Below the pieces are notes generated by a model. The model saw nothing but the letters and a program-made list of their open reading frames with translations, ran no database searches and was not told the DNA's origin. From the sequence record NC_135729.1: a stretch of DNA of 64,000 nucleotides; one strand, 5' to 3'. The position numbers were made by a program, and so were the translations under genes. The DNA comes from a phage. Shown one piece after another: positions 12,368-56,963 of the stretch; within the stretch, counting starts at the first letter, position 1, and each line of letters starts with the position of its first letter.

Positions 12368-12379
12368 TTTATCTCCTGA

Positions 12380-14452: not shown

Positions 14453-15138
14453 TAACCCTCCTGTCTAGTTGCGTTTACTGTAATACTTTCACAATAAATG
14501 GTTGTGGTGTCCCAATCAGGTCTTACGTCAGGAACATATAGCAAAGTAGCCAGCCCACCAACTCCGAATTGGATTTCTTCCCACACTGATCCGAAGCCAA
14601 GAGCTGTAGAGTCCCCTTCAAAACCAAAAGCTTGCCCTTGCGATTCTGTAAGACGCAAATGACAAGGTAATGGTAGCATATCTAAGATCTGATCGATAGA
14701 CTGCAATATGTCAAAGCAAGTTTTTCTAATATTTATGTCAAACCTGAAGTTGTCTCCTTTCCACGTATCGAAATTGTCTCTTCCGAACAATTGTCGCAAG
14801 GTGGAGATGACATCTTCTCGAGTCCCGCCCCTTGATGCTGCAGCCTGCTGAATAATTAGTGTGGCACGAAAATCAGCATCTGAAAGTCCATTCCTAAGAA
14901 TACCAAGCTGATTACCAACTTCGTCAAGGTATCTTCCGCTGGCATTGTTAAGCAATCTTCCTTCAGCCAAACCTACCAGCATCTTATCAACATCCTCCAA
15001 CCTTTTAAGGTACACGGTTAAGAATGTGACTAAATTAACCTTCTCAGCCAGAAAATCTCCAGGCAGGTAGTCAAGACCTCCCTGAACAAAATCTGGCAGA
15101 GTGTGGATGTGGTTAACATCCGACTTAATCTCTGCCAT
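14452..15138 (-). CDS. baseplate protein (228 aa)
   Basis: Start overlaps the stop of the preceding gene (translational coupling); assigned by position next to the J-like baseplate gene. Confidence 0.4.
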   Translation of the reverse strand: MAEIKSDVNHIHTLPDFVQGGLDYLPGDFLAEKVNLVTFLTVYLKRLEDVDKMLVGLAEGRLLNNASGRYLDEVGNQLGILRNGLSDADFRATLIIQQAAASRGGTREDVISTLRQLFGRDNFDTWKGDNFRFDINIRKTCFDILQSIDQILDMLPLPCHLRLTESQGQAFGFEGDSTALGFGSVWEEIQFGVGGLATLLYVPDVRPDWDTTTIYCESITVNATRQEG

Positions 15139-15149
15139 ATCTCGCCGCC

Positions 15150-16640: not shown

Positions 16641-16707
16641 GTCACTCCTCCGGTATGAAAATCTCTACAAGGTATTTTACCAAATTTTGTAACAATAGTC
16701 AATCTGA

Positions 16708-16737
16708 GCATAAAAATAAACCCCGCCGAAGCGGGGC
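16708..16737 (-). terminator. intrinsic terminator after the 1279-aa fiber gene
   Basis: Minus-strand hairpin CCCCGC-ttcg-GCGGGG followed by TTTATTTTTAT. Confidence 0.6.
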
Positions 16738-16745
16738 TTTAAAGG

Positions 16746-33174: not shown

Positions 33175-35511
33175 TTACCAAAGGTCGGTAGACATGAAGT
33201 TGATATCTTTATTGTTCTCCCACTCAAGTTTTGCATCAAATATTTTGTTAAACTCACCCTCATCTATTGAAATCGTGATTTTCCCATCACTGATCTCTAA
33301 AGGTAGCATTTCCATAGTTCTTAATTGAGAAGCAAAACCAGGGCCACCCGGCAACGGAAGAGTCCCGCCAGGTAAGGTGTCCAAAGGATTAACAAACCCG
33401 TTACCTCCCGATATGATATCTTTGCGAATCATATCGCTGATAGTATCTAGCTGCTGATTTCTTTCACTTAGTGGGTTGTAACGGTCATTAAATAATTCCC
33501 CGGCGCTTAGTATTGTACCGATAATGCCCAGCTTGCCGAGCCGACCAACTTTGCCACCAGGTGTCTTGAGGCCACCCCCACCTTTTCCTGCCGGAGCTCC
33601 ACCACCAGATCCTTCTGTAGTAGCGGCACCCGCTGCTCCAGCTGCACCCCTTAGAGAGTTAAGGAATTTAAAGGTTTTTACAAGCATGGATGCCATGACA
33701 AAACCTTTTGTTAGGGCGTTGACTACCAGCATGATGGCAGCAGCAAACCCTGCCCATTTAGCATAGCTAAAGGTGTCATGAAGCTCTTCAGAATATTCCT
33801 TCGTCTTAGCTGTTATGAATCCCCATTTAATCCCCCATTCAAGGAAAAACATGCGGATCTTGACTATAGTGTTGTTTAGTTCACCAACTACCCAGTTAAG
33901 GCCTCTCACAAACCCGCTAACAAAATCACCAGAGGCATCCCACACAAATTGCAGAGTCTCACCAGTGCGGATTAGTGTATAATAGAACTCTGTTAGTTCG
34001 TCAGACCAACGGGTGAACAGTTTCTGACGAGTCAGTTCGATGAAGGTTTTCAGTCTGTTTTCTGCCAGCACGTTAGACTTCTGCATTCTTTCATAACCAG
34101 CTGCAGATGCCTCGTTCATGTACTTAGCCACATACTTCATGATCTTGGCTGTTTTAACCTCACCTTTCTTCATCATGTCCATGAACTGATCCATGGAGAG
34201 TTCAGAAAGACCAAAAGCCTCTTTGGTGGCCTTGATAAAAGGTTCGTATGCACCAGGCAATGCTTCAGCAAGTTGTTGCTTCAGTTCTTCGGACATTACT
34301 TGTCCCTTGCCAAGCATCTGTTGGATAGCCATAATACCGCGCTGGTATTTTACCTCATCGGCACCATAAGCAGCAGCATACTGTGAGTATGCAGAAAACA
34401 GCTCATGCACTTCCTGATTTGTCATCTGGTTTTTGGCGTTTACCGACATCTGGGCGTAACCTTGAAGACCAGATTTGAGATCAAAACCAAGACGCATAGC
34501 CTCTTGCTGGACAAACGCAACCTCACTGTTGGCTTTGTTTGGATCTCCAGTAACAGCAGTAAGAGCAGCACTTGCCCCCTCCATCATATGACCGGATCTG
34601 TTAACCGCAGCAAATCCAGAAAAAGCCGTATACGCAGCTGTTGCATTAATAACAGATCTACGTAAGTCTCTCATGGCATCGCCTAGTGTAAGCGTTTGGC
34701 TGGTGGCGCTTTTAAACCCAGACTGCAGCGCTGACAGGTGGGCGTTAAAGGTTGACTTCTTCATCTCCCCGCGAGCAAACCTGGACTCTAACTCTGAGTA
34801 TCCTGGCAAGCTTCCACGGAATCCGGCCCCATACTTGGCAGAAAGTCTTATCGCGGAGTTGTAGAGGTGGGTTCTCCTTGCCTCACGATCCGACATAAGC
34901 CTATTATCCATACCAGCTTTACTGTCTCTTCTTAGCTGTCTATGATAACGATTCATAGCGGCTGTCTGAGCTTTTACAAGGTTAGGGTCGGAAGCCACAC
35001 CCCCCATATTAGGGTTACCGGGGATATATTTGAAAGATTTGGCATTAGCCAAAACTCTTGCCTTAGGTGCCTTATAACCACCGTAAGACACTGGTGCAGA
35101 TTTGGCAGCCTTTTTGGCCTCTTTAGCTTGCTGCTGGTAGAACTTACGCATCCTAGCCATTTCTGGATTTTTAGCGGTAAGATTACCTACAGCTTGTTTA
35201 CGTCTCGCATTCTCCCTACGTTCTATTGCAGCCCTTACTGCAGCCTCTTTCTTGGCCTGTGCTACGCTCTCTCTGTGCAGTTTAGCATTTGCCTGAGATT
35301 GCTGTCTGGCAACCCTCTGCATTGTCTGCTGGGTTTTAACAGCTACCGCCTGCCATCTACTCATGGGGTTGGCTGAGTTAAAATCCTCGCCCAGTTTCCT
35401 GAACTCCCTCCCAATACTGCGAATTTTCTCGACAGCTTTTTTGTAGGAGGAGTTCTCTATCTCAAAGCCAATCTTGTTGACTGTTGTGGCAACTATTTTG
35501 TTTGTAGCCAT
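33175..35511 (-). CDS. tail tape measure protein (778 aa)
   Basis: Directly downstream of the frameshifted chaperone pair; Ala/Gln/Lys-rich helical N-terminus, hydrophobic segment, Gly-rich tract (GAAGAAGAATTEGSGGGAPAGKGGGG). Confidence 0.7.
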   Translation of the reverse strand: MATNKIVATTVNKIGFEIENSSYKKAVEKIRSIGREFRKLGEDFNSANPMSRWQAVAVKTQQTMQRVARQQSQANAKLHRESVAQAKKEAAVRAAIERRENARRKQAVGNLTAKNPEMARMRKFYQQQAKEAKKAAKSAPVSYGGYKAPKARVLANAKSFKYIPGNPNMGGVASDPNLVKAQTAAMNRYHRQLRRDSKAGMDNRLMSDREARRTHLYNSAIRLSAKYGAGFRGSLPGYSELESRFARGEMKKSTFNAHLSALQSGFKSATSQTLTLGDAMRDLRRSVINATAAYTAFSGFAAVNRSGHMMEGASAALTAVTGDPNKANSEVAFVQQEAMRLGFDLKSGLQGYAQMSVNAKNQMTNQEVHELFSAYSQYAAAYGADEVKYQRGIMAIQQMLGKGQVMSEELKQQLAEALPGAYEPFIKATKEAFGLSELSMDQFMDMMKKGEVKTAKIMKYVAKYMNEASAAGYERMQKSNVLAENRLKTFIELTRQKLFTRWSDELTEFYYTLIRTGETLQFVWDASGDFVSGFVRGLNWVVGELNNTIVKIRMFFLEWGIKWGFITAKTKEYSEELHDTFSYAKWAGFAAAIMLVVNALTKGFVMASMLVKTFKFLNSLRGAAGAAGAATTEGSGGGAPAGKGGGGLKTPGGKVGRLGKLGIIGTILSAGELFNDRYNPLSERNQQLDTISDMIRKDIISGGNGFVNPLDTLPGGTLPLPGGPGFASQLRTMEMLPLEISDGKITISIDEGEFNKIFDAKLEWENNKDINFMSTDLW

Positions 35512-35565
35512 GGTTTCCTCATAATAAAAAGGGCCAGATCCCAGAAAAGGAATCCGGCCCTTAGA

Positions 35566-35931
35566 TTATCCTCTCCTGCGCTTAGCTTTCGCAGCAGCTG
35601 CGGCAGCCTTCTGCTCCCGCTCCATTTCCCTGTTTTGGACGGTATCTAGGAATTCTTCGATATCAAGATACTCACAGAGCTTCAGGAAATACGCCATATC
35701 TGCAAGATTTAGCGATTCAAAATTTTCCCCTTTGAAATTCTTGAGCACCCTACACCAAAGAAAGTCGAACCAGTTGAGTGAACTGTTCTTGGCTGCCCAC
35801 TCACTGGCCCTCACAACAACCTTGCTTATTCCTGCTCTTCCGGAGTCTGATCCAGGTTGTTCACCTGCTGAATCATACCCATCTGCTGTAACATCTCCAG
35901 AAGGCTTCCTAAACCGTCTTGTGTGAAAAAA
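35566..35931 (-). CDS. -1 frameshift extension of the tail assembly chaperone (GT-like fusion)
   Basis: The -1 frame is open from the slippery heptamer at 35925..35931 through ORF 35566..35814, with no stop across the junction. Confidence 0.5.
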   Translation of the reverse strand, partial: FFHTRRFRKPSGDVTADGYDSAGEQPGSDSGRAGISKVVVRASEWAAKNSSLNWFDFLWCRVLKNFKGENFESLNLADMAYFLKLCEYLDIEEFLDTVQNREMEREQKAAAAAAKAKRRRG

Positions 35932-36299
35932 CAGCCGTAGTTAACCTCCAGAACCTTACCTGCCAGCTTAATCATCTCCAGCAGATGCCCTGCAAACACA
36001 ACATCTGGGTTAAGCTTATCCACACCATCTACGGTAATATCTTCGAACAAGATTTTAAATAACTCTTCAATAGAGCTATCATCAAGTTCTTGGAACAGGT
36101 AAGCCAGAGCAGTAGGAAGGACCTCTGCCATATTCTGACCACCAGAGATAATAGATCCACCGATAGCACCTAGCGGGACAGCCACAATCTTACCGATTTT
36201 AGGCATGTTTTTCATTGCTTTCATCGGTCCCCAGTGGGTGATCACAAAGTTGTGCCCTGCTAAATCAATCTCTGTTGTAGGTCTAAAGTTTATAGCCAT
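35826..36299 (-). CDS. tail assembly chaperone (G-like, 157 aa)
   Basis: Between tail tube and tape measure genes; acidic C-terminus; contains the slippery site for the downstream -1 frame. Confidence 0.55.
   Translation of the reverse strand: MAINFRPTTEIDLAGHNFVITHWGPMKAMKNMPKIGKIVAVPLGAIGGSIISGGQNMAEVLPTALAYLFQELDDSSIEELFKILFEDITVDGVDKLNPDVVFAGHLLEMIKLAGKVLEVNYGCFFTQDGLGSLLEMLQQMGMIQQVNNLDQTPEEQE
35925..35931 (-). other. programmed -1 ribosomal frameshift slippery heptamer T_TTT_TTC
   Basis: Minus-strand sense ggc-tgt-ttt-ttc-aca (plus-strand gaaaaaa); fits X_XXY_YYZ in the zero frame near the 3' end of the chaperone gene. Confidence 0.5.
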
Positions 36300-36409
36300 T
36301 TTATAGCATCCTTATTAGTCATGTTGTGCACCATATTTGTGTATTTTACCATGATTATGGTGCATTGTCAATTTAACCTTTCAAGCAATTCAAGAACGTG
36401 TGTCAAAAC

Positions 36410-36443
36410 CATAAAAGCAAAAAGCCCCACCCGAAGGTGAGGC
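36410..36443 (-). terminator. intrinsic terminator after the tail tube gene
   Basis: Minus-strand hairpin GCCTCACC-ttcg-GGTGGGGC followed by TTTTTGCTTTT. Confidence 0.6.
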
Positions 36444-36461
36444 TTATGCTAAAGTGTGCCC

Positions 36462-36935
36462 TTAGATAATACCTGCAAGACCTGCGAGGCCAGTAAGAGC
36501 ACCAGTGATGTTATCACGGTTGAGCCATGCATCCAGAATACCGATATCCCAGTCCAGCTGACCTACTTCGGTTCCGTAAGTCAGGTCAGGCTGTTTCTGG
36601 ATCCAACCAATTGTGAAAATACCAGGACCCTGGCTACCTTCCAGCAGAACTGGGAAGAATACCAGACCAGTAATCGATGCCTGTTTCTGCCAGTCAGAAA
36701 GGTAAGCGTTCCATACAGAAGTGTTCTGCAAAGATACAGTCATAACACCAGATTGGTTACGAGACAGGGCCGCAGACATTTCGCCATCCACACCAACGTG
36801 AGGGTAGATGTTGTCTTCGTTTCTTGAAACAACGATCTTGGTGTCAGCAGCGAAGCCAGTGACACGCTGCTGCATCAGGTACAGTTTGACCTTTTTAGGG
36901 TCATACGCATAAGGAGTTAAAATTTGAGTTTCCAT
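36462..36935 (-). CDS. tail tube protein (157 aa)
   Basis: Small protein immediately after the sheath gene and before the chaperones; canonical contractile-tail order. Confidence 0.6.
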   Translation of the reverse strand: METQILTPYAYDPKKVKLYLMQQRVTGFAADTKIVVSRNEDNIYPHVGVDGEMSAALSRNQSGVMTVSLQNTSVWNAYLSDWQKQASITGLVFFPVLLEGSQGPGIFTIGWIQKQPDLTYGTEVGQLDWDIGILDAWLNRDNITGALTGLAGLAGII

Positions 36936-36945
36936 CTAGTCTTCC

Positions 36946-38322
36946 TTATTCAGTCATTGCAACAGCATTGGTGGATTTAGAACCAACTTTGTCCAGAAGA
37001 ACGTTGATCCGGATACGAACGAAGTGCAGGGCGTTGTTATACACCAGTTCTACTTTCACACCTTCCAGAACACGAGCAGCCAACTGATTGGTTGGGATTT
37101 CTGCACGTTTAGGAACTGTGATGATCGGGTCGTAGAATACATTATTGTCTTCGTCGAAACCTGTCAGGATCGCACCATTCTTAATGCCAGTGTTGATTGG
37201 GTTGTTCATCAGGACAGACTTGATAACCGGAAGATCATCATCAGACATCTTCATGCTTAAACCCATGTTGGAGCGACGATGCATGTACCCAAACATAGAT
37301 TCTTCAGATCTGAACTTGATCCAGTGTGCAAAACGAATAGCGTCTGCATACTGACCTGAAGCACACTTACCTTCCCAGAAAGCGCCAACACCGTTAATCA
37401 TTCTGTAGAAGTTAACGTGGTTTTCCCAAATAGCCATACGCTGAGTTAAAGTCAGAGACGGTGCAATCACACCTGGCATCTGTTTTAAGTGCAAGCTGTC
37501 GCCGTAAGACGGATCGTTGGATGCCATAGCACCTATGATACCACCCTCCGGGAAGTCCTTATCTGCACGAGGATCGTACATGCCGACACTGTCATATTGT
37601 GCAGCTTTCAGTTTGGTGGCGATGTTATTATCTTTACCAGTCACATCTTCTGCAGTAGAGTAGACATGCAGCTTGTAGTTAGCCTGAGCCCACTTAGCAC
37701 ATGCTTCAATGTCGGTGTGGTCTTCATGGCACAGGAAGTACCAATTGTCACGCTCAGCATTGATCTTATCAACTACTGTAGAAGGTTTTTCAGCATTGGC
37801 GATATTTTTGATTGTATAGTTACCAGTATGGTAACCAACAGTACAGTCACCAGTGATGGTGATAACACCATCAGCAGCCTCTACAGTGATATCGTCCAAG
37901 TTATCATCTGCTTCGATTTTAGTCTTCATTGACTCTGCAATCTGAGTTGCAGCTGTTCCACCAGAGATAGGGACTATCAAAGAGGTATTGTAGCTACCTT
38001 TTGCAATAGTCATTACGACATCGGTATCAGCTGCGGCAGCAATACCTTTAAAATCTACAGTGGTCTTTTCTTTGGCCTGTCTGCCGATCATAACGTATTG
38101 TGGAGGGAATACACCACCAAAAGCTTTTGCTGCAAACTCATACGCTGCAGAGCCTTGTGCGAAACCATCTTCCACCATCTGATCCAGCTCTGCATATACG
38201 CGAGCTCGCTCAGTAAAGTTGTTGTGGATAGCGATGAACAGGGGAGTTTCGAAACCTACAGTGTCAATAGGCTGGGTTCCGAGGTTAACTGTAACATCTA
38301 CCACTTTATCTAAATATGGCAT
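36946..38322 (-). CDS. tail sheath protein (458 aa)
   Basis: About-50-kDa protein directly upstream of the tube gene, in the standard sheath-tube-chaperone-tape measure order. Confidence 0.6.
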   Translation of the reverse strand: MPYLDKVVDVTVNLGTQPIDTVGFETPLFIAIHNNFTERARVYAELDQMVEDGFAQGSAAYEFAAKAFGGVFPPQYVMIGRQAKEKTTVDFKGIAAAADTDVVMTIAKGSYNTSLIVPISGGTAATQIAESMKTKIEADDNLDDITVEAADGVITITGDCTVGYHTGNYTIKNIANAEKPSTVVDKINAERDNWYFLCHEDHTDIEACAKWAQANYKLHVYSTAEDVTGKDNNIATKLKAAQYDSVGMYDPRADKDFPEGGIIGAMASNDPSYGDSLHLKQMPGVIAPSLTLTQRMAIWENHVNFYRMINGVGAFWEGKCASGQYADAIRFAHWIKFRSEESMFGYMHRRSNMGLSMKMSDDDLPVIKSVLMNNPINTGIKNGAILTGFDEDNNVFYDPIITVPKRAEIPTNQLAARVLEGVKVELVYNNALHFVRIRINVLLDKVGSKSTNAVAMTE

Positions 38323-38394
38323 TTGTTTCCTCTTAATATCTGTGCACGGATATCAAACACGCAGTGTAATCATTACACTACACAATTATAACGA

Positions 38395-38946
38395 TTACTG
38401 ACCACTGTCTGTAACCGCTTTACCAGAATTGGGTGAAGGGAAGTGTGTGGTTATTTCAGCCTTAATTCCCTGAAGATCCTCAAAAGCCCCAATGTCTGTT
38501 TCAACAAACCTTACGTTAAATGTCAGCATCACAGTGGCTCTATTTTCATACGTCTGTTTATTCAACGGCACTCTTTGAGGTGAGATTGTTGAATTGTTAG
38601 AGTAGGCAAAGCACGATCCCATAGGGAAATACTTGTCATAAAACATTGGAAGATTTATTGCTTGCAATACTCTGCTAAGTGCAGCATGTGCCCTGCCACG
38701 ATAAGCTGTTAACAGATAGGTAACAGTGTAACTGTGTGTTACGTAAGCATTACCCTCCGCATCTTGAAACTCATTATCTTCCCAAGTGGTGGGATTGATC
38801 GCCAAGGTTTGTAAAAGCACAAACTCACCTTCCGGCTTCGGTATGGTAGAGCTTTCTGCCAGAACTACAGTTCTTCCTGTGGCAACCTTGACAAGCTTAG
38901 CAATGGTTGTTTCAAGATCAGAAAAAACTTTTTCGAAAGCTTCCAT
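38395..38946 (-). CDS. tail completion / terminator-like protein (183 aa)
   Basis: Position between neck genes and sheath; no motif. Confidence 0.3.
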   Translation of the reverse strand: MEAFEKVFSDLETTIAKLVKVATGRTVVLAESSTIPKPEGEFVLLQTLAINPTTWEDNEFQDAEGNAYVTHSYTVTYLLTAYRGRAHAALSRVLQAINLPMFYDKYFPMGSCFAYSNNSTISPQRVPLNKQTYENRATVMLTFNVRFVETDIGAFEDLQGIKAEITTHFPSPNSGKAVTDSGQ

Positions 38947-48744: not shown

Positions 48745-48821
48745 TGGTCTCCACGGAGTGATTCGAACACTCGACCTCCTGATCCCAAATCAGGCGCTCT
48801 ACCAAGCTGAGCTACGCGGAG
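48745..48821 (-). tRNA. tRNA-Pro (anticodon UGG)
   Basis: Manual fold: acceptor CTCCGCG/CGTGGAG, U8, D-loop AGCTTGGTA, anticodon stem CCTGA/TCAGG with loop TTTGGGA, T-arm GAGTG-TTCGAAT-CACTC, CCA encoded. Confidence 0.8.
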
Positions 48822-48832
48822 TATCTACTATT

Positions 48833-48907
48833 TGGTGGCCCTGGGTGGAATTGAACCACCGTCTGGCGATTATGAGTCGCTTGCTTGAACCTTCCAGCTA
48901 CAGGGCC
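48833..48907 (-). tRNA. tRNA-Met (anticodon CAU; elongator or lysidine-Ile2 not distinguishable)
   Basis: Manual fold: acceptor GGCCCTG/CAGGGCC, anticodon loop CTCATAA, T-arm GGTGG-TTCAATT-CCACC, CCA encoded. Confidence 0.7.
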
Positions 48908-48908
48908 A

Positions 48909-48984
48909 TGGTGCTGATGGCAGGACTTGAACCCGCAACCTATTGATTACAAATCAATTGCACTACCAATTGTGCTACATCAGC
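48909..48984 (-). tRNA. tRNA-Thr (anticodon UGU)
   Basis: Manual fold: acceptor GCTGATG/CATCAGC, D-arm GCAC-AATTGGTA-GTGC, anticodon stem ATTGA/TCAAT with loop TTTGTAA, T-arm GCGGG-TTCAAGT-CCTGC, CCA encoded; 1 nt from tRNA-Met. Confidence 0.8.
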
Positions 48985-48989
48985 AAAAA

Positions 48990-49088
48990 GGTGCTAGGCG
49001 GTGGAATCGAACCACCTATGTATTCAACGACTACCTCGTCTATTTTCAGGATTAAAAATCCTCGCCCTTGCCAAAGGGCTTACCTAGC
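48990..49088 (-). ncRNA. atypical 99-nt tRNA-like element (anticodon uncertain)
   Basis: Good acceptor stem (GCTAGGT/GCCTAGC), D-arm (GCCC-TTTGGCAA-GGGC) and canonical T-arm (GGTGG-TTCGATT-CCACC), but a 4-bp anticodon-type hairpin (AGGA-TTTTTAA-TCCT) and about 31 nt before the T-arm; 3' end ACC. Confidence 0.4.
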
Positions 49089-49186
49089 TCAATATGTTGA
49101 CCATGTTGCTAGTCGGCGATGACGACTGTAACATTTGATAATCCGGTTCTGCTTCCGGCTTTCGCTTAATTGCAAGGTCAACAATG

Positions 49187-49277
49187 TGGCGGAGAGTAAT
49201 GGAATCGAACCATCATCGAGTCATCCTCAACGGGACGGTTTTCAAGACCGCTTGAGCACCATTGCTCCCTACCCTCC
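49187..49277 (-). tRNA. tRNA-Ser (anticodon UGA), type II
   Basis: Manual fold: acceptor GGAGGGT/ACTCTCC, anticodon stem GCGGT/ACCGT with loop CTTGAAA, long variable arm, T-loop TTCGATT, CCA encoded. Confidence 0.75.
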
Positions 49278-49391
49278 TTTATAAATTATACTGATAATGA
49301 CACTGATTTTCGAGCAGTTAGTGACTAGTATAAACGACGATAAATATCAATGCCATTATCTGTATTATTTATGCATCTAAAAAATATAAAT

Positions 49392-49478
49392 TTGGTGGGG
49401 AGTGGTGGAGTCGAACCACCCGAGTCGCAATGACAATAGATTTACAGTCTACACCGCTACCTCTACGGGATAACTCCC
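49392..49478 (-). tRNA. tRNA-Tyr (anticodon GUA), type II
   Basis: Manual fold: acceptor GGGGAGT/ACTCCCC, anticodon stem with loop CTGTAAA, long variable arm, T-arm GGTGG-TTCGACT-CCACC, CCA encoded. Confidence 0.75.
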
Positions 49479-49482
49479 CAAT

Positions 49483-49557
49483 TTGGCACCCCGTACTGGA
49501 CTCGAACCAGTGTCAACGGCTTAGAAGGCCGCTGCTTTATCCACTAAGCTAACAGGG
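49483..49557 (-). tRNA. tRNA-Arg (anticodon UCU)
   Basis: Manual fold: acceptor GCCCTGT/ACGGGGT (two G-U pairs), D-arm GCTT-AGTGGATA-AAGC, anticodon stem GCGGC/GCCGT with loop CTTCTAA, T-loop TTCGAGT, CCA encoded. Confidence 0.75.
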
Positions 49558-49654
49558 CACTGGGTGGCTTTCTTTTACACCTTAGCCGCCAGAAAAGGTG
49601 GGAGACCATGTTTACAATATTACACTGTTAAGCAAAGTTTGTCAAGAAAATATT

Positions 49655-52482: not shown

Positions 52483-53037
52483 TTACTCCCCGCTGTCAAT
52501 AGCAAGACTCATTGCAATACGGTATGCCTCTTCTAATGGTAAGAGTCTCCCCCACACATCCCAACCGACATCAAACTGCCTGCCAAACAACTGCTGTGTG
52601 GTTCCGTGAGCATGACCGAACAGTTGGACTGATCCGTGAGGCTTTCTGTTCCACTTTGCAAACTGGTAATGGCTCATACAGATCAAATTCTTGTTGTGGC
52701 GAAGCTCGTAATAATCTACAACCTCATGACCGAACTCTTTCATAATTCTGACAGTCGTCCTTGTGTCATGGTTACCACGAACAAGAATAATATGTCCGTT
52801 CAACATATTTAGAACATCTGGGAGCAATTTGTTGATATTCTTATCATTAGTGCACGCAATATCTCCCAAGTGAAACACAGTGTCTGCAGGTGACACAACA
52901 GAGTTCCACTCGGCGATGATTCCCGCATTCATACTGTCAAGATTGTGATCATACTGAGATCTGTGTTTTTGACATGAATCAAACTCCATGACCCGCTGGT
53001 GGAGAAAGTGTGTGTCGCTTGTTACAAAGTATTTCAT
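52483..53037 (-). CDS. calcineurin-like metallophosphoesterase (candidate polynucleotide 2',3'/3'-phosphatase)
   Basis: Start moved to the ATG at 53037 (MKYFVTSDTHF...; GAGGA upstream); motifs SDTHF, GDIACTND, GNHD, GHAHG match the metallophosphoesterase signature. Confidence 0.6.
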   Translation of the reverse strand: MKYFVTSDTHFLHQRVMEFDSCQKHRSQYDHNLDSMNAGIIAEWNSVVSPADTVFHLGDIACTNDKNINKLLPDVLNMLNGHIILVRGNHDTRTTVRIMKEFGHEVVDYYELRHNKNLICMSHYQFAKWNRKPHGSVQLFGHAHGTTQQLFGRQFDVGWDVWGRLLPLEEAYRIAMSLAIDSGE

Positions 53038-53044
53038 ACATTCC

Positions 53045-53455
53045 TCATTTAAGTTTAATGCAGTTTTTAAGCTGGCGTTCCATACGATCCACAACCTTGT
53101 CTGGAACATCATGAATGCTTTTATTACCGTGGCGGTTTTCAACCACGATCACGGTATAACTATACCCGTGACTGATTGCCATGTCAACATATTCCTGCAC
53201 ATGTTTTTCTTTTGTAAACGTATTACTTACCACGATACGGTCGTATCCCGTACGCATCATATCTTCTACGTTATCTTTGCACCATTTTGCTGCGAGTGTT
53301 ACTTTACTTGCATCCCAGTTGTAATTGCCGTCATCGTCATACCAGAACATGTCGTTCTCAAAATGTGGATACAGACCTTCTAAAGATAGCGCATTTGCCA
53401 GTGTTGATTTGCCAGACCCTGGCAGACCACGCACGATATATAGCATTTTAGACAT
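53045..53455 (-). CDS. P-loop polynucleotide-kinase-like protein (T4 Pnk kinase-domain-like)
   Basis: Start moved to the ATG at 53455 (GGAGG 7 nt upstream); Walker A GLPGSGKST and downstream VVSNT resemble the T4 Pnk kinase domain. Confidence 0.55.
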   Translation of the reverse strand: MSKMLYIVRGLPGSGKSTLANALSLEGLYPHFENDMFWYDDDGNYNWDASKVTLAAKWCKDNVEDMMRTGYDRIVVSNTFTKEKHVQEYVDMAISHGYSYTVIVVENRHGNKSIHDVPDKVVDRMERQLKNCIKLK

Positions 53456-53483
53456 AGCAACCCTCCGTTTTAATTTTAATGAT

Positions 53484-53512
53484 AGTATACCTAACTGTTT
53501 TGTTAATTTCAA
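53484..53512 (-). promoter_or_regulatory. sigma70-type promoter for the leftward kinase / phosphatase / regulator operon
   Basis: Minus-strand -35 TTGAAA (plus 53507..53512), 17-bp spacer, -10 TATACT (plus 53484..53489), then GGAGG and the ATG at 53455. Confidence 0.45.
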
Positions 53513-53515
53513 GTG

Positions 53516-53545
53516 TTGACACTAGGTTATTTGTGTGGCATGATA
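53516..53545 (+). promoter_or_regulatory. sigma70-type promoter for the rightward RNA ligase / Sir2 operon (divergent from the previous one)
   Basis: Consensus -35 TTGACA at 53516..53521 with a weaker -10 (CATGAT/ATGATA) 17-18 bp downstream; -35 elements of the two promoters lie back to back. Confidence 0.4.
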
Positions 53546-53573
53546 GACTGACAAAATGACAAATGAGGAACGT

Positions 53574-54491
53574 ATGATGAAGTATTTTAATGCAGATGAC
53601 CTAGTAGACAAAGGTCTTGTAACCAGTCGGTATTATCCAGATCTTGGATTAAAGATCTATAAATATGCCAGAAAAGTATTCTACAACAATCTGTGGCATT
53701 TGTCTCCGCGTTTACTGGAGTGCCGAGGTATTGTTGTTGGCAATGAGGGGAATGTTGTGGCATGGCCTTTCACAAAAGTATTCAACTTAGGAGAAAACTC
53801 CACCAACCTACCGGACAGTAAACTTGTTACTGCGGTAGAGAAAAAGAACGGATTCCTCGGTGTGGTATCATCTCATAAAGGTGAACTATTGTTCTCAACA
53901 ACCGGGTCTCTTGATTCTCCATATTGTAACCTTGCAAAGGAAACCATCCAAGAGCAATGTGGTAATTTAGATCTTATCAAGAAGGTTATGGGCAATGAAA
54001 ACATGACATTCATGTTTGAAATTTGTCACCCTTCAGATCCGCATATTGTTCAGGAAGATCATGGCGCATATTTGATAGGTTGCAGATATAATGATTCTGG
54101 AATAATGCTACCAGAAGCAGCTTTAGATGGGATTGCCAAATACCTTGGTGCAAAACGTCCTCACACTGTGCGTGAAATTCCGTTCAGCTATGCAAAAGAA
54201 TTAGCTGCAGAAACAAGAGGTGAAGGGTATATGATTCGTAAGCCTTACTACCCTTATGATCTGCAGCTGAAGATCAAGTCTCCATACTATCTGGCACGGA
54301 AGGCCGTAATGAGGGGTAAAGCTTGGAAGATTTGGGATGATGATATCTTTAAACGTGTTGACGAAGAGTTTTACGGCATGGTAAACTTCATTCGTAGCAA
54401 TTACACAGAGGATGTGTGGAACTGCCTCCTGGAGCAGGAACGCCGTGAGATACTTGATTACTATTTCCACAACGAGAACTATATGCAATGA
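53574..54491 (+). CDS. RNA ligase, Rnl2-like nucleotidyltransferase
   Basis: Motif I-like EKKNGF (T4 Rnl2 EKIHGTN), motif IV EGYMIRKP (T4 Rnl2 EGYVLKP), motif V LKIK; start placed at the ATG preceded by GAGGAA (track ORF starts at 53556). Confidence 0.6.
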   Translation: MMKYFNADDLVDKGLVTSRYYPDLGLKIYKYARKVFYNNLWHLSPRLLECRGIVVGNEGNVVAWPFTKVFNLGENSTNLPDSKLVTAVEKKNGFLGVVSSHKGELLFSTTGSLDSPYCNLAKETIQEQCGNLDLIKKVMGNENMTFMFEICHPSDPHIVQEDHGAYLIGCRYNDSGIMLPEAALDGIAKYLGAKRPHTVREIPFSYAKELAAETRGEGYMIRKPYYPYDLQLKIKSPYYLARKAVMRGKAWKIWDDDIFKRVDEEFYGMVNFIRSNYTEDVWNCLLEQERREILDYYFHNENYMQ

Positions 54492-54838
54492 AGAAGTTGA
54501 TTGTGTGGCTAGATGACTTAAGAGATCCGTCAAATTACGGGCTCCCAGACGCTGTTTGGCTGAAGAATTCCTCCGAGTTTATGGATTTTATTAACGATAA
54601 GGGAAAGCTCTACAGACGCGTTTCTGAGTGGCATATGGACAACGACCTAGGAGAAGTATTCGAAGGATACGATTGCCTATCCATGTTGGAGGAAAAATTT
54701 GTATTCGGTAAGCCTCCCGTGGTTGACAACGTGAAGATTTTCGTACATACTTCTAATCCATCAGCGGCTCGTAAATTCATGCTTGCAGCTGACTCGTTTA
54801 AAAAGTTTGGAATAGAGATTAAACAAAACATCTACTGA
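54488..54838 (+). CDS. hypothetical protein (116 aa), coupled to the ligase gene
   Basis: ATGA start/stop overlap with the upstream gene; conserved-looking acidic motifs (WLDDLRDP, SEWHMDNDLG) but no recognisable family. Confidence 0.45.
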   Translation: MKKLIVWLDDLRDPSNYGLPDAVWLKNSSEFMDFINDKGKLYRRVSEWHMDNDLGEVFEGYDCLSMLEEKFVFGKPPVVDNVKIFVHTSNPSAARKFMLAADSFKKFGIEIKQNIY

Positions 54839-54846
54839 GGGCACTT

Positions 54847-55608
54847 ATGCGACGACTGATTATTATCTCCGGTGCTGGTTTGAGCGCTGAATCTGGTATT
54901 CCCACTTTCCGATCTGGTAGTACTGCAATGTGGGAGAATTTCAGCATAGATGAGGTGTGCAACATCCACACCTTCGCCAAGAACTACTATAAGGTGCATG
55001 ACTTTTACAATGCACGTCGTGTAGCTCTGGGCAGTGTTGATCCTAACCTTGCACATCTCCGGATCGCTGAGTGGTATTCCCGCTGGTCTGGTCGTGTGAT
55101 CAACCTGACCACCAATGTAGATGATTTGCTGGAGCGTGCTGGTGTAAAACATGAAGATATTTTACATGTCCACGGGTATTTGCCTGAAATCACCTATGAA
55201 GATACTGAAGGTAATGATGTAATTAAAAATATAGGGTACACGGAGGTAGATACAGGCAAGTATACCTGGGTTAAGCCCAATGTAGTGTTCTTCGGTGAGG
55301 TTGCTCCTAAGTATACAGACATGTATGACCTGTTGACATCTCTTACCAGCAATGATATGGTGATCCTGGTAGGTTGTTCTAACACAGTTATTAATTTTAA
55401 CTGGGAATTGTTTCCTGCTACTTGTAAAGGCACAAAACTGCTGATTGTAAACAAGTATGATTCGCAGAGTGCAGATGGAAGTGGCATTTCACGTAGCGAC
55501 CTTTATCAATATGAGGATCGCGGGATCCCTGTATGGTTTAACGGTGCTGTTGACGCTTTCTCTGATAAAGCATTTATTGAAACTGTAGAAAACTTTATGG
55601 AACTGTAA
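54847..55608 (+). CDS. Sir2-family (sirtuin-like) NAD-dependent protein lacking the zinc-ribbon module
   Basis: Sirtuin signature SGAGLSAESGIPTFR, NAD-pocket TTNVDDLLERAG, catalytic HG in LHVHG, VVFFGE and LVGCSNTV motifs; no CxxC...CxxC after the HG. Confidence 0.8.
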   Translation: MRRLIIISGAGLSAESGIPTFRSGSTAMWENFSIDEVCNIHTFAKNYYKVHDFYNARRVALGSVDPNLAHLRIAEWYSRWSGRVINLTTNVDDLLERAGVKHEDILHVHGYLPEITYEDTEGNDVIKNIGYTEVDTGKYTWVKPNVVFFGEVAPKYTDMYDLLTSLTSNDMVILVGCSNTVINFNWELFPATCKGTKLLIVNKYDSQSADGSGISRSDLYQYEDRGIPVWFNGAVDAFSDKAFIETVENFMEL

Positions 55609-55622
55609 GAGGTGACCTTTTA

Positions 55623-56336
55623 ATGCTAAATACTAAACTGATCGACAACCTGGAAAAACTGTCTCAGCCAGAAAACTACCTTTGGTCTGCCAGTTGGGTG
55701 GAAAATTGGAACCGTGTAGCAGCTAAAGTGAAAAAATCATACACACCATTCGAACTCCAGCTCAGTTTTATTGAAGAAGAGTTTAATGAGGTTCTTGAAG
55801 AGTTGGAGAAAGGTGATGGTGGAGATCACCTGCTAAAAGAGGCCTGTGATCTGCACGTTGTTACAAGTTATGCCGCTTATCTTGTCAACGATAACTACGA
55901 AAAGTGGACAAGTCTGTTTGATAATTCGCGAGATATTAAGTTTAAGATTGGGGAGTTCTATGATACACTGATCGCTGCTAAAAACACACCAAAGCAAAAA
56001 GCGTCTGCTTACCGACTAGCGGAGTTATCAACAGCTTTGCTGTTCCAGCTTAGCGGGGATGTGTGTGGGATGATGCGGAAGGTTCTCAAATCTAATGACA
56101 GTAAGTTTGCGCGGATCAACCATCTACGGCATTCACACGGTGCTAGTGCAGATATGCCTGCTGAACAACTCATAGAGTTGGAGATTAAAGATCTTGAGCG
56201 ACGCTTTGATGGTCGCTACGAAGGTTTTGTTGCTAAGGAAGAGTTCTACAACGGTAATAAAGTTATCATATTCCTTGACAGTAAAGGTAAGATCATGAAG
56301 CCTTCGAGCTTCAAGGATGTAACAGAGTATATTTGA
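55623..56336 (+). CDS. MazG-like nucleoside triphosphate pyrophosphohydrolase domain protein (237 aa)
   Basis: N-terminal EEEFNEVLEELEKGDGGDHLLKEACDLHVV resembles the MazG/HisE EExxE...D core; C-terminal half unassigned. Confidence 0.5.
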   Translation: MLNTKLIDNLEKLSQPENYLWSASWVENWNRVAAKVKKSYTPFELQLSFIEEEFNEVLEELEKGDGGDHLLKEACDLHVVTSYAAYLVNDNYEKWTSLFDNSRDIKFKIGEFYDTLIAAKNTPKQKASAYRLAELSTALLFQLSGDVCGMMRKVLKSNDSKFARINHLRHSHGASADMPAEQLIELEIKDLERRFDGRYEGFVAKEEFYNGNKVIIFLDSKGKIMKPSSFKDVTEYI

Positions 56337-56342
56337 CAACAT

Positions 56343-56368
56343 AGCCGGGTAATCCCGGCTTTACTTAT
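56343..56368 (+). terminator. possible intrinsic terminator after the MazG-like gene
   Basis: Hairpin AGCCGGG-taat-CCCGGCT followed by a T-rich stretch. Confidence 0.4.
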
Positions 56369-56398: not shown

Positions 56399-56707
56399 AT
56401 GTACAAGCATTCCAGAGATCTTGAAAAAGATGCTGTGTTTGGCGACCAGATGAAGGAGCTGATCAAACTTATAGGTAGAATGGAAGATAAGTTTGACACT
56501 AAAATCTACATCGATAGCAAGATCTTCAACCACAAAATATGGACAAATGTGTGTGTTGGGCTACATGGTGATAAAGATATTGTAAATTTGGTTGTAATAA
56601 AGTTCATAGTGTGGCAGAATAAGACTATACGTTATTCCGATCCACACTTACTTGTTTATCCTATAAAAGACCTACTACAGAAGGAGGACTGCAATGCCGT
56701 TATTTAA
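56399..56707 (+). CDS. hypothetical protein (102 aa)
   Basis: ORF with no motif. Confidence 0.35.
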   Translation: MYKHSRDLEKDAVFGDQMKELIKLIGRMEDKFDTKIYIDSKIFNHKIWTNVCVGLHGDKDIVNLVVIKFIVWQNKTIRYSDPHLLVYPIKDLLQKEDCNAVI

Positions 56708-56963
56708 TCTTGCTAAACCTGTAGAAGCCCACCAGTTTGACGGAAGCTCTTCATCAGTATCTGATCTGCAACGGTGGATTGATACAGGTGTGTTTACATC
56801 GTCACCTGTTCGGACCAGAGATCTTCGTCGCATGTGTGAGCTTGTCGAGCCTTTTGGTAACCTTGTCTTGTACCAGGGAGATTGGCTAGTTGACTTTATG
56901 GGAGACTGGTTGGTAATGAGTAAAGAAGAGATGTTTAAAATTTTTAAGGAAGAGGCCGAGTAA
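56694..56963 (+). CDS. hypothetical protein (89 aa)
   Basis: ORF overlapping both neighbours at its ends; no motif. Confidence 0.35.
   Translation: MPLFNLAKPVEAHQFDGSSSSVSDLQRWIDTGVFTSSPVRTRDLRRMCELVEPFGNLVLYQGDWLVDFMGDWLVMSKEEMFKIFKEEAE

What the first reader, a model, noticed from the sequence alone, without database searches (positions are those of the whole stretch)
54488..56336. Phage-encoded zinc-less Sir2 flanked by an unknown coupled gene and a MazG-like pyrophosphohydrolase: candidate NAD+/nucleotide-manipulating (anti-defence?) cassette
The 253-aa protein carries the full sirtuin catalytic signature (GAGLSAESGIPTFR, TTNVDDLLERAG, HG, VVFFGE) but none of the four zinc-ribbon Cys of classical deacetylases. 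Such minimal Sir2 domains are known mainly as NAD+-depleting effectors of bacterial defence systems, yet here it sits in a phage operon with no TIR, HerA or Argonaute partner. Its upstream neighbour (116 aa, ATGA-coupled) has no recognisable fold, and its downstream neighbour is MazG-like. A phage-borne NAD-consuming enzyme next to an NTP pyrophosphatase could modify host proteins or intercept nucleotide signals, and the three-gene unit appears undescribed as a system.
Basis: partly seen in the sequence, partly recalled or inferred. Interest (0 to 1): 0.78.

Follow-up and report, generated by a model that had tools for sequence, protein, structure and literature searches.

The report
Phage sirtuin inside RNA-repair gene cluster
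The zinc-less sirtuin is real, but it sits in a conserved phage tRNA/RNA-repair gene cluster that was described computationally in 2022 with phage rV5 as the prototype, so it is a known, still untested prediction and not a new system.

Summary
The window is an rV5-like coliphage (Vequintavirus; 95-97% identical to phages PDX and Murica). The three ORFs exist, and the 253-aa protein is a true Sir2 with its catalytic motifs and no zinc-ribbon cysteines.

A PNK-like kinase and a metallophosphoesterase are transcribed divergently next door, and seven tRNA genes lie 4 kb away. The 237-aa protein is an all-alpha NTP pyrophosphohydrolase whose fold is closest to dimeric dUTPases.

Iyer et al. 2022 (PMC9503650) already describe exactly this neighbourhood, naming 'Escherichia phage V5'. 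They predict an NAD+-dependent RNA-repair system in which the sirtuin acts like Tpt1/KptA. I re-verified their three contexts independently: rV5-like phages, T5-like phages with a HAD_SAK phosphatase, and jumbo phages with a Nudix-cREC fusion.

I found no experimental test of this prediction. The finding is already known, and the open question is biochemical. The link between the MazG-like gene and Sir2 is the weakest part.

The parts
53556..54491 (+). Rnl1-type RNA ligase (311 aa).
   Evidence: Pfam RNA_lig_T4_1 9.2e-15, 55.5 bits against cutoff 28.3. PHROG 562 'RNA ligase and tail fiber attachment catalyst' 4.3e-66. Motif I K96-x-N98-G99, E223-G224 and K239-I-K241 are invariant in 5 homologues of 45-50% identity.
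54488..54838 (+). cREC (cyclic-phosphate-processing receiver) domain protein, 116 aa. Its start overlaps the ligase stop (ATGA).
54847..55608 (+). Zinc-less class-III-like sirtuin (253 aa).
   Evidence: Pfam SIR2 7.2e-28. Best PDB relatives are E. coli CobB 1s5p at 3.3e-21 and SIRT5. G9-A-G11, S16, N90, D92, H109 and F53-Y54-N55-x-R57-R58 are invariant in the phage clade, with no Cys in the zinc-module stretch.
55623..56336 (+). All-alpha NTP pyrophosphohydrolase superfamily protein (237 aa), with a dimeric-dUTPase-like fold plus a C-terminal beta hairpin.
53045..53455 (-). PNK-like P-loop kinase (136 aa from the ATG; the ORF listing extends it to a TTG at 53512), divergently transcribed.
   Evidence: Pfam AAA_33 2.4e-10. 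PHROG 2071 at 3.3e-58 and PHROG 505 'polynucleotide kinase' at 8e-10. In Seunavirus/Mydovirus-like loci its orthologue lies on the same strand between cREC and Sir2.
52483..53037 (-). Calcineurin-like metallophosphoesterase (184 aa from the ATG; the ORF extends to 53142).
   Evidence: Pfam Metallophos and Metallophos_2 at about 4e-6. PHROG 547 'phosphoesterase' 3.8e-52. PDB 1xm7 at 1.5e-10. Co-clustered with the ligase, kinase and cREC genes in most Vequintavirinae-like loci and in phi92.
53516..53544 (+). Sigma-70-like promoter candidate in the roughly 100-bp divergent intergenic region.
   Evidence: TTGACA-17 nt-CATGAT with an upstream TG, 10 of 12 matches. This is a consensus match only. 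The number of such sites in the region is not above the shuffled control.
56343..56360 (+). GC-rich hairpin (terminator candidate) 7 nt after the stop of the 237-aa gene.
   Evidence: AGCCGGG-TAAT-CCCGGCT followed by TTACTTATTA. The Murica record annotates a terminator at the homologous position.
48745..49558 (-). Phage tRNA gene cluster (Pro, Met, Thr, one aberrant call, Ser, Tyr, Arg). Context and plausible substrates, not part of the operon.
   Evidence: ARAGORN finds 7 genes. Rfam tRNA confirms 5 at gathering score.

Best explanation
**Proposal.** The Sir2 gene belongs to a phage RNA (tRNA) 'heal-and-seal' repair module. The module counters host ribonucleases that cut tRNAs and leave 2',3'-cyclic-phosphate and 5'-OH ends.

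**Gene layout (shown).** One + strand unit encodes an Rnl1-type RNA ligase, cREC, Sir2 and an all-alpha pyrophosphohydrolase. It runs from a promoter-like site to a hairpin. A PNK-like kinase and a metallophosphoesterase are transcribed divergently beside it.

**Steps (all inferred).**
1. The kinase phosphorylates the 5'-OH.
2. cREC and/or the metallophosphoesterase open or remove the cyclic phosphate.
3. The ligase seals the break.
4. Sir2 uses NAD+ to remove a remaining 2'-phosphate. This parallels Tpt1/KptA. A substrate oxygen attacks C1'' of NAD+ and releases nicotinamide. [quoted passage not shown] The chemistry mirrors the two steps of sirtuin deacylation.
5. cREC, possibly with the pyrophosphohydrolase, then linearises and cleaves that by-product.

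**What is shown and what is not.** Domain identities, catalytic-residue conservation, gene order and recurrence of the association in unrelated phage groups are shown. Every enzymatic step and the RNA substrate are inferred.

**Confidence split.** About 0.55 that the Sir2 works in RNA-end processing. About 0.35 that its specific reaction is 2'-phosphate removal.
For: 1. Domain set within 4 kb: RNA_lig_T4_1, cREC_REC, SIR2, AAA_33 kinase and Metallophos.
2. Tight packing: ATGA overlap, then 8-nt and 14-nt spacers with Shine-Dalgarno-like sequences. A promoter-like site and a hairpin bracket four genes.
3. The Sir2 clade recurs beside RNA-end-processing genes in three phage groups of different size and taxonomic assignment, with different partner families and orders:
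   - Vequintavirinae-like loci have phosphoesterase, ligase, cREC, kinase, Sir2 and DNA ligase on one strand, with the kinase between cREC and Sir2.
   - T5-like phages have a Pfam HAD_SAK_2 'Swiss Army Knife RNA repair' phosphatase (4e-20) within 0.8-1.3 kb of Sir2 in 29 of 32 loci. It is downstream in T5 and upstream in Erwinia phage KEY.
   - Jumbo phages fHe-Yen9-04 and 121Q have Sir2 followed immediately by a Nudt16-like Nudix fused or adjacent to cREC (1.2e-23 and 3.5e-22). fHe-Yen9-04 also has a 2H phosphoesterase and a PIN-PhoH; a PhoH-like gene is annotated in 121Q.
4. A non-homologous pyrophosphatase (Nudix in jumbo phages, all-alpha in rV5) sits directly downstream of Sir2 in both contexts.
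5. The catalytic His, Asn and Asp and the NAD-binding motifs are invariant across the clade, so it is an active NAD+-using enzyme and not a decayed domain.
6. A seven-gene tRNA cluster lies 4 kb away.
7. Iyer et al. 2022 reached the same prediction independently (PMC9503650).
Against: - I found no experimental data for any phage sirtuin, cREC or this pyrophosphohydrolase.
- The Sir2 keeps everything expected of a class III protein deacylase, including the Y54-x-x-R57 pair that corresponds to the CobB and SIRT5 residues recalled as binding succinyl/malonyl carboxylates. Sequence alone therefore does not favour RNA over protein substrates.
- Kinase, metallophosphoesterase and Rnl1 already form a complete repair pathway of the Clostridium thermocellum Pnkp type, which would not need 2'-phosphate removal.
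- T4 Rnl1-type ligases do not require or leave a 2'-phosphate. Whether this ligase does could not be tested, because there was no PDB hit even with a profile.
- In phi92-like phages the repair cluster is intact but lacks Sir2. In related Phapecoctavirus and rV5-like-labelled records Sir2 lies about 27-32 kb from cREC or the pyrophosphohydrolase gene.
- Synteny within Vequintavirinae and Stephanstirmvirinae may reflect shared ancestry and not function.
- The 237-aa gene is adjacent to Sir2 only in the rV5 group. Elsewhere it follows the DNA ligase 2.9-3.8 kb away, and its fold is closest to dimeric dUTPases.
Confidence: 0.55

Rival explanations
1. The Sir2 is a conventional CobB-like NAD+-dependent protein deacylase, or a protein ADP-ribosyltransferase. 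It would act on host or phage proteins, for example translation, metabolic or RNA-repair enzymes. Its position among RNA-repair genes would be regulatory or incidental.
For: - Best sequence relatives are E. coli CobB (3.3e-21) and SIRT5.
- Best NCBIfam models are NAD-dependent protein deacylases (1.4e-35).
- The NAD pocket, catalytic His and the Y-x-x-R pair of class III desuccinylases are kept.
- In phi92-like phages Sir2 is not inside the repair cluster.
Against: - All NCBIfam scores are far below the curated cutoffs (122 against 243 bits).
- All four zinc-module cysteines are lost in the whole clade. By recalled structural knowledge, that module helps form the acyl-peptide cleft in classical sirtuins.
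- The host already has CobB.
- The association with RNA-end-processing enzymes recurs in three unrelated contexts.
Confidence: 0.2
2. One reading: Sir2, cREC and the pyrophosphohydrolase form an anti-defence cassette. It would consume NAD+ or destroy NAD+/ADP-ribose-derived or cyclic-nucleotide immune signals (Thoeris, CBASS, Pycsar type), independently of RNA repair.
For: - cREC and Nudix/all-alpha pyrophosphatases are the kinds of enzymes that could linearise and cleave cyclic ADP-ribose-type signals. Iyer et al. allow this for cREC-Nudix fusions.
- In jumbo phage fHe-Yen9-04 the Sir2 lies 1-4 kb from an Acb1-like 2H phosphodiesterase (2.6e-17) and from NAMPT and NadM-Nudix NAD+-salvage genes.
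- A different phage MazG (Atd1) is reported to blunt TIR-STING toxicity by degrading ppGpp (bioRxiv 10.1101/2022.06.09.495361).
Against: - In this window the partners are an RNA ligase, a polynucleotide-kinase-like protein and a phosphoesterase, not sponges or signal nucleases.
- An NAD+-consuming enzyme does not obviously help against NAD+-depleting defences.
- Atd1 is not an orthologue. The Certrevirus CB7 genome has no homologue of any cassette gene, and its 120-aa MazG shows no similarity to the 237-aa protein.
- No NAMPT or PRPP synthetase is found in the window.
Confidence: 0.1
3. Partial rival concerning the third gene only: the 237-aa protein is a house-cleaning (d)NTP or dUTP pyrophosphatase of DNA metabolism. 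Its adjacency to Sir2 in rV5-like phages would be a lineage-specific rearrangement with no functional link.
For: - In Seunavirus/Mydovirus-like loci and in phi92 it lies after the DNA ligase, 2.9-3.8 kb from Sir2. In phi92 it is in a cluster that has no Sir2, next to recombination, exonuclease and thymidine-kinase genes.
Against: - In the rV5 group it is 14 nt downstream of Sir2, before the hairpin.
- Jumbo phages place a non-homologous pyrophosphatase (Nudix) in the same position after Sir2.
- It is found in nearly the same phage groups as cREC: 323 against 356 records with matching host-genus counts.
Confidence: 0.35

Closest known systems
Sirtuin-centred phage RNA-repair neighbourhood, type 2 of Iyer, Burroughs, Anantharaman & Aravind 2022 (Viruses 14:1977, PMC9503650, section 3.7.3; prototypes Escherichia phage V5 and Proteus phage Mydo)
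   Same: Every listed component is present here: T4-like RNA ligase, cREC, sirtuin, nucleotide kinase, MazG-superfamily pyrophosphatase and calcineurin-like phosphoesterase. The window is itself an rV5-like phage.
   Different: Nothing of substance. Added here:
- the transcription-unit layout
- the divergent placement of the kinase and phosphoesterase in the rV5 group, against a single strand elsewhere
- the dimeric-dUTPase-like fold of the 'MazG' protein
- loss of the zinc cysteines across the clade
- retention of the class III Y-x-x-R pair
Tpt1/KptA RNA 2'-phosphotransferase (ADP-ribosyltransferase fold) of fungal/plant-type tRNA splicing
   Same: Proposed functional analogue. It is NAD+-dependent, releases nicotinamide, uses two-step chemistry through a C1''-linked intermediate, and is associated with an Rnl1-family ligase, a kinase and a cyclic phosphodiesterase.
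   Different: The fold is unrelated (Rossmann-type sirtuin against ART), so it is not a family member. Activity on RNA is untested.
E. coli CobB / human SIRT5 (class III sirtuins)
   Same: Closest sequence relatives (3e-21 to 6e-21). They share GAGxS, the catalytic His, the (T/Q)N(I/V)D motif, FGE and the Y-x-x-R pair.
   Different: No zinc-binding cysteines, Gln replaced by Thr in TQNID, far below the NCBIfam equivalog cutoffs, and a phage-specific clade with an RNA-repair gene context.
T4 Pnkp + Rnl1 tRNA repair against the PrrC anticodon nuclease; Clostridium thermocellum Pnkp/Hen1
   Same: A kinase, a 3'-end phosphoesterase and an Rnl1-type ligase encoded by a phage that also carries tRNA genes. 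The separate metallophosphoesterase resembles the CthPnkp phosphatase module more than T4's HAD phosphatase.
   Different: The kinase and phosphatase are separate small proteins. There are additional cREC, Sir2 and pyrophosphohydrolase genes with no counterpart in T4.
Defence-associated Sir2 NADases (ThsA, DSR1/2, SIR2-HerA, SPARSA)
   Same: Zinc-less Sir2 domain.
   Different: No PADLOC model matches. There is no SLOG, HerA, pAgo or TIR partner. It is phage-encoded and sequence-closest to CobB.
Atd1, MazG-like ppGpp pyrophosphatase of Pectobacterium phage PcCB7V (bioRxiv 10.1101/2022.06.09.495361)
   Same: A phage-encoded all-alpha NTP pyrophosphohydrolase from the same subfamily of phages (Vequintavirinae). 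In the related Certrevirus CB7 the only annotated pyrophosphatase is a 120-aa MazG near the DNA ligase.
   Different: That 120-aa CB7 MazG has no detectable similarity to the 237-aa protein. It was taken as a stand-in for Atd1, whose own sequence I did not have. Certrevirus lacks the Sir2/cREC/ligase set.

Membership tests
Sirtuin / Pfam SIR2 (PF02146) | Profile match above the gathering score | tested here: met
   98.2 bits against cutoff 24, E 7.2e-28, covering profile positions 1-178 of 180.
Sirtuin / Pfam SIR2 (PF02146) | NAD-binding GAGxS, catalytic His, and Asn/Asp of the (T/Q)N(I/V)D motif | tested here: met
   G9-A10-G11, S13/S16, N90, D92 and H109 are invariant in 13 phage homologues and align to CobB.
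Sirtuin / Pfam SIR2 (PF02146) | Four-Cys zinc ribbon in the small domain | tested here: not met
   No Cys between H109 and the FGE motif, although the stretch is about as long as CobB's Cys-bearing one. The same holds for the whole phage clade.
Sirtuin / Pfam SIR2 (PF02146) | NAD+-dependent lysine deacylase activity | not testable with these tools
   Needs an enzyme assay.
CobB-type protein deacylase (NCBIfam equivalogs) | Score above the curated equivalog or subfamily cutoff | tested here: not met
   Best is NF001753 at 122.5 bits against cutoff 243. NF040867 scores 103.9 against 320.
Defence-system Sir2 (Thoeris ThsA, DSR, SIR2-HerA, SPARSA) | Match to a defence Sir2 model and presence of the cognate partner (SLOG, HerA, pAgo or TIR) | tested here: not met
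   No PADLOC hit at E up to 0.01. The neighbours are a ligase, cREC, kinase, phosphoesterase and NTP pyrophosphohydrolase.
cREC (PF20274, cyclic-phosphate-processing receiver) | Profile match above the gathering score | tested here: met
   54.9 bits against cutoff 27, E 1.5e-14. All but one of the 55 homologues found carry PF20274.
cREC (PF20274, cyclic-phosphate-processing receiver) | Receiver (CheY-like) fold with the acidic pocket, Thr/Ser and Lys | tested here: met
cREC (PF20274, cyclic-phosphate-processing receiver) | Occurs with RNA-repair or NAD-ADPr genes and never with a histidine kinase | tested here: met
   It is translationally coupled to an RNA ligase here. It is fused or adjacent to a Nudix after Sir2 in jumbo phages. 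No histidine kinase was seen in any locus examined.
cREC (PF20274, cyclic-phosphate-processing receiver) | Hydrolysis of 2',3'-cyclic or 1'',2''-cyclic phosphates | not testable with these tools
   The activity has only ever been predicted.
All-alpha NTP pyrophosphohydrolase superfamily (MazG / HisE / dimeric dUTPase) | Profile match of the window protein to MazG or PRA-PH | tested here: inconclusive
   The window protein hits PRA-PH only at E 0.095, 13.6 bits against cutoff 21.3. Of 16 family members, 16 hit PRA-PH (best 4.8e-6) and 14 hit MazG. The phi92 orthologue scores 31.1 bits and passes the cutoff.
All-alpha NTP pyrophosphohydrolase superfamily (MazG / HisE / dimeric dUTPase) | All-alpha fold shared with solved members | tested here: met
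All-alpha NTP pyrophosphohydrolase superfamily (MazG / HisE / dimeric dUTPase) | Metal-binding acidic motif ExxE...ExxD | tested here: met
   E51, E52, E53, E56 and D76 are invariant and E73 is at least 90% conserved in 16 homologues. The match to the motif is by inspection.
Iyer et al. 2022 sirtuin RNA-repair neighbourhood, type 2 | Sirtuin of the phage clade with a T4-like RNA ligase, cREC, a nucleotide kinase and a MazG-superfamily pyrophosphatase, with or without a calcineurin-like phosphoesterase | tested here: met
   All six are within 52483-56336. The definition is read.
Tpt1/KptA RNA 2'-phosphotransferase | ADP-ribosyltransferase-fold catalytic domain (a Pfam match to the Tpt1/KptA family) | tested here: not met
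   The Pfam scan of all cassette proteins returned no Tpt1/KptA family. The resemblance is functional and hypothetical only.
Tpt1/KptA RNA 2'-phosphotransferase | [quoted passage not shown] | not testable with these tools
   Needs biochemistry or yeast tpt1-delta complementation.
Rnl1-family RNA ligase | Pfam RNA_lig_T4_1 above cutoff, with the motif I lysine and motifs IV and V | tested here: met
   55.5 bits against cutoff 28.3. K96, N98, G99, E223, G224, K239 and K241 are invariant. It is far below the T4 RnlA equivalog cutoff (38 against 242 bits), so it is not an RnlA orthologue.

The most novel reading that the evidence does not exclude
The phage sirtuin would be the first Sir2-fold enzyme whose natural substrate is a nucleic acid. 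[quoted passage not shown] The idea was published in 2022, so the novelty would lie in demonstrating it, not in conceiving it.
Probability: 0.35. Interest if true: 0.7.

Novelty: already known. Interest (0 to 1): 0.35.

Why it matters
If the prediction holds, three things follow:
- Sirtuin chemistry would extend from acyl-lysine to RNA phosphate.
- The widespread but uncharacterised cREC domain would gain a function.
- It would show that many common coliphages run an NAD+-dependent branch of tRNA repair against tRNA-cutting defences. Sir2 homologues are in 1012 phage records, including rV5-like, T5-like and phi92-like therapeutic candidates.

As a genome-scan finding it is not new. The neighbourhood was published with this phage group as its prototype.

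Tried and rejected
- **PADLOC scan** of Sir2, cREC and the 237-aa protein gave no hits. The defence-type Sir2 reading was rejected.
- **Single-sequence PDB searches** for the ligase and the kinase found nothing. Those for cREC and the 237-aa protein gave only chance-level hits.
- **Profile PDB search for the ligase.** A 5-sequence ligase profile also found no PDB entry. I could not decide whether the ligase resembles T4 Rnl1 or the 2'-phosphate-requiring Trl1 type.
- **Atd1 orthology.** I tested whether the 237-aa protein is an orthologue of the experimentally studied phage MazG Atd1 by reading the whole Certrevirus CB7 genome. It is not. There is no similarity by BLASTP or hhalign, and Certrevirus lacks the cassette.
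- **NAD+-salvage genes.** I looked for NAMPT and PRPP synthetase in the window and found none.
- **Phapecoctavirus Sir2 neighbours** are unknown PHROGs or a DNA methylase and gave no information.
- **Rfam scan** of 47-60 kb found only tRNAs.
- **Literature searches** for any experimental work on phage sirtuins or cREC returned only the two computational papers from the Aravind group.
- **Promoter and terminator scan counts** are not above shuffled controls. The two sites are cited only as consistent with the gene boundaries.

Full report
**1. What the window is**

The interval and its flanks are 95-97% identical over 2.9 kb to Escherichia phages PDX, Murica, JES2013 and about 115 other rV5-like myoviruses (Vequintavirus). 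GC skew changes sign at about 53.5 kb. This is the point from which genes are transcribed divergently.

**2. The observation**

The three ORFs are as described.

- The 253-aa product is a solid Sir2 (Pfam 7.2e-28).
- Its nearest solved relatives are E. coli CobB (1s5p, 3.3e-21) and human SIRT5. Its nearest NCBIfam models are CobB-type deacylases, but far below their cutoffs.
- In the alignment to CobB, the segment between the catalytic HG and the FGE motif has about the same length but no cysteine, where CobB has four. The protein's only cysteines are C38, C177 and C193.
- The loss is shared by 13 diverse phage homologues and by jumbo-phage homologues. It is a clade feature.
- The clade keeps G9-A-G11, S16, N90, D92 and H109. 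In the medium-sized phages it also keeps Y54-x-x-R57, which corresponds to the CobB and SIRT5 residues I recall as binding acidic acyl groups. That last point rests on my own knowledge.

- It is a cREC_REC domain (PF20274, 54.9 bits against 27).
- All but one of the 55 homologues found carry that domain.
- The AlphaFold model is confident (pLDDT 92.3).
- The receiver active-site positions are conserved: D9/D10 (at least 90%), and D51/D53, T88/S89 and K96 (invariant).

The ATGA overlap at 54488-54491 joins this gene to the upstream ORF, not to Sir2. That upstream ORF (53556-54491) is an Rnl1-family RNA ligase (Pfam RNA_lig_T4_1 at 9.2e-15; PHROG 562 at 4.3e-66). Its motif I lysine is conserved.

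The 237-aa protein has no significant Pfam hit itself, but other evidence places it.

- It hits PHROG 671 'nucleotide pyrophosphohydrolase' (4.8e-21).
- All 16 close family members touch PRA-PH and 14 touch MazG.
- The phi92 orthologue passes the PRA-PH cutoff.
- The acidic motif E51-E53, E56 ... E73, D76 is conserved.

'MazG-like' is therefore right at superfamily level, with a dimeric-dUTPase-like architecture.

**3. The surroundings**

- Divergently transcribed from a roughly 100-bp intergenic region are a P-loop kinase and a calcineurin-like phosphoesterase. The kinase hits AAA_33 at 2.4e-10 and the polynucleotide-kinase PHROG 505 at 8e-10.
- The + strand genes are packed tightly: a 4-nt overlap, then 8-nt and 14-nt spacers.
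- A TTGACA-17-(TG)CATGAT site precedes the ligase. A GC-rich hairpin follows the 237-aa gene, where the Murica record also annotates a terminator.
- Such sites are not enriched over shuffles, so this is consistent with a four-gene unit but does not prove one.
- A seven-gene tRNA cluster lies at 48.7-49.6 kb.

**4. Prior description**

Iyer, Burroughs, Anantharaman and Aravind (Viruses 2022, PMC9503650) state that most viral sirtuins form a distinct clade found in three conserved neighbourhoods. [quoted passage not shown] They propose that the sirtuin works like KptA/Tpt1 in removing 2'-phosphates. They also propose that cREC and the other enzymes resolve the cyclic phosphate or process ADP-ribose cyclic phosphate. 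cREC itself was defined in their 2021 jumbo-phage paper.

Searches for experimental follow-up found none. The claim that the unit is undescribed is therefore refuted. The prediction remains untested.

**5. Independent re-verification across phages**

Sir2 homologues occur in 1012 phage records, cREC in 356 and the 237-aa family in 323. The last two have almost the same host-genus profile.

I screened 55 loci with phmmer.

- *Vequintavirinae-like loci (about 135-150 kb contigs).* The locus closest to the window (L004, 90% identical Sir2) has the rV5 order. Five loci (L002, L025, L026, L033, L053) show phosphoesterase, ligase, cREC, kinase, Sir2, DNA ligase and pyrophosphohydrolase in that order on one strand. 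Other loci carry most or all of these genes with partly different order, or with no detectable cREC. The rV5 group differs by an inversion of the kinase and phosphoesterase and by placing the pyrophosphohydrolase directly after Sir2.
- *T5-like phages, including T5 itself.* They lack these partners. They place a HAD_SAK_2 'Swiss Army Knife RNA repair' phosphatase (4e-20) within 0.8-1.3 kb of Sir2 in 29 of 32 loci, on either side of it.
- *Jumbo phages.* In fHe-Yen9-04 and 121Q, Sir2 is followed at once by a Nudt16-like Nudix fused or adjacent to cREC. fHe-Yen9-04 also has a 2H phosphoesterase and a PIN-PhoH nearby, and a PhoH-like gene is annotated in 121Q.
- *phi92.* Its repair cluster (cREC, phosphoesterase, ligase, kinase, DNA ligase, pyrophosphohydrolase) is intact but lacks Sir2. 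In related Phapecoctavirus and rV5-like-labelled records Sir2 lies about 27-32 kb from cREC or the pyrophosphohydrolase gene.

The Sir2-cREC link and the Sir2-phosphatase link thus recur in unrelated phage groups with different partners. This is better evidence than synteny within one subfamily. A non-homologous pyrophosphatase sits directly after Sir2 in both rV5-like and jumbo phages.

**6. Mechanism**

The best-supported reading is an RNA heal-and-seal module with an NAD+-dependent branch.

1. The kinase phosphorylates the 5'-OH.
2. cREC and/or the metallophosphoesterase deal with the 2',3'-cyclic phosphate.
3. The ligase seals.
4. Sir2 removes a 2'-phosphate using NAD+.

The chemical parallel between sirtuin deacylation and the Tpt1 reaction makes this plausible. 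In both, an oxygen nucleophile attacks C1'' and the ribose 2''-OH then attacks the electrophilic centre. This parallel rests on established enzymology recalled from memory, not on a test here. All enzymatic steps are inferred.

Weak points:
- The Sir2 looks like a competent class III protein deacylase.
- Kinase, phosphoesterase and ligase would suffice without it.
- The ligase's 2'-phosphate requirement is unknown.
- Sir2 is unlinked from the cluster in phi92-like phages.
- The pyrophosphohydrolase may simply be a dUTPase-type enzyme of DNA metabolism.

**7. Rivals**

- A CobB-like protein deacylase or ADP-ribosyltransferase (0.2).
Its only support is the Acb1-like 2H and NAD-salvage genes near Sir2 in one jumbo phage, plus the reported ppGpp-degrading phage MazG Atd1. 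The short MazG of a related Certrevirus, taken as a stand-in for Atd1, is unrelated to the 237-aa protein.
- For the third gene only, a housekeeping (d)NTP pyrophosphatase (0.35).

**8. Verdict**

The sequence observation is largely correct, but the interval was cut one gene short and one domain was missed. The system is already in the literature with this very phage group as prototype. Novelty: already known as a computational prediction. Interest is moderate (0.35), because the underlying hypothesis of a sirtuin acting on RNA is attractive and directly testable, but it is not new.

Noticed in passing
window 48990-49088 (- strand): ARAGORN calls a 99-nt 'tRNA-???' with a four-base anticodon (atcc) inside the tRNA cluster. 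Rfam's tRNA model does not reach gathering score there, nor for the tRNA-Ser call at 49187-49277. Murica annotates the homologous gene as tRNA-OTHER (Asp|Gly). It could be a degenerate, intron-containing or frameshift-suppressor-like tRNA.
   Followed up: partly
GenBank MG0656xx records: About 20 records named 'Campylobacter phage' with host Campylobacter jejuni are 94-96% identical to rV5-like coliphages across this block, and some to phi92-like phages. They are probably mislabelled or are coliphage contaminants of those preparations.
   Followed up: no
L059 (phi92) 14180-16878; L002 (SSE121) 1-476; L063 (CB7) 35096-38932: In phi92, Seunavirus and Certrevirus, a PRPP synthetase gene, and where the locus extends far enough a nicotinamide phosphoribosyltransferase gene, lie next to the RNA-repair/DNA-ligase cluster and the tRNA genes. 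These enzymes act in NAD+ salvage from nicotinamide, which is the product of a sirtuin reaction. No homologue was found in this 64-kb window.
   Followed up: partly
L056 (Yersinia phage fHe-Yen9-04) 1-4288: Upstream of the jumbo-phage Sir2 are NadM-Nudix and NAMPT genes and a 2H protein that hits Pfam Acb1 (anti-CBASS) at 2.6e-17. The Sir2/Nudix-cREC genes there sit in what looks like an NAD/nucleotide counter-defence island.
   Followed up: partly
L001, L005-L050 (T5-like loci), 1.9-4.6 kb upstream of Sir2 on the opposite strand; L056 7046-8500: A PhoH-like ATPase gene recurs near Sir2 in 31 T5-like loci. It appears as a PIN-PhoH fusion 2 kb downstream of Sir2 in jumbo phage fHe-Yen9-04, and a PhoH-like gene is annotated at the same relative position in 121Q. 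No homologue was detected in this window.
   Followed up: partly
L045 4287-4973: In one 153-kb viral contig the cREC domain is the C-terminal half of a stop-to-stop ORF of 229 codons. Its N-terminal 115 residues match no Pfam family. The real start codon was not checked, so this may or may not be a fusion to an unknown domain.
   Followed up: no
L005 (T5) 11651-12481: Two tandem DUF7415 paralogues follow the HAD_SAK phosphatase downstream of Sir2 in almost all T5-like loci. Their function is unknown.
   Followed up: no
window 56399-56963: Two small conserved ORFs of unknown function (102 aa, PHROG 7684; 89 aa, PHROG 14585) lie between the hairpin and the ATP-dependent DNA ligase. Their homologues stay in the same cluster in Seunavirus/Mydovirus-like loci, but at other positions.
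   Followed up: no
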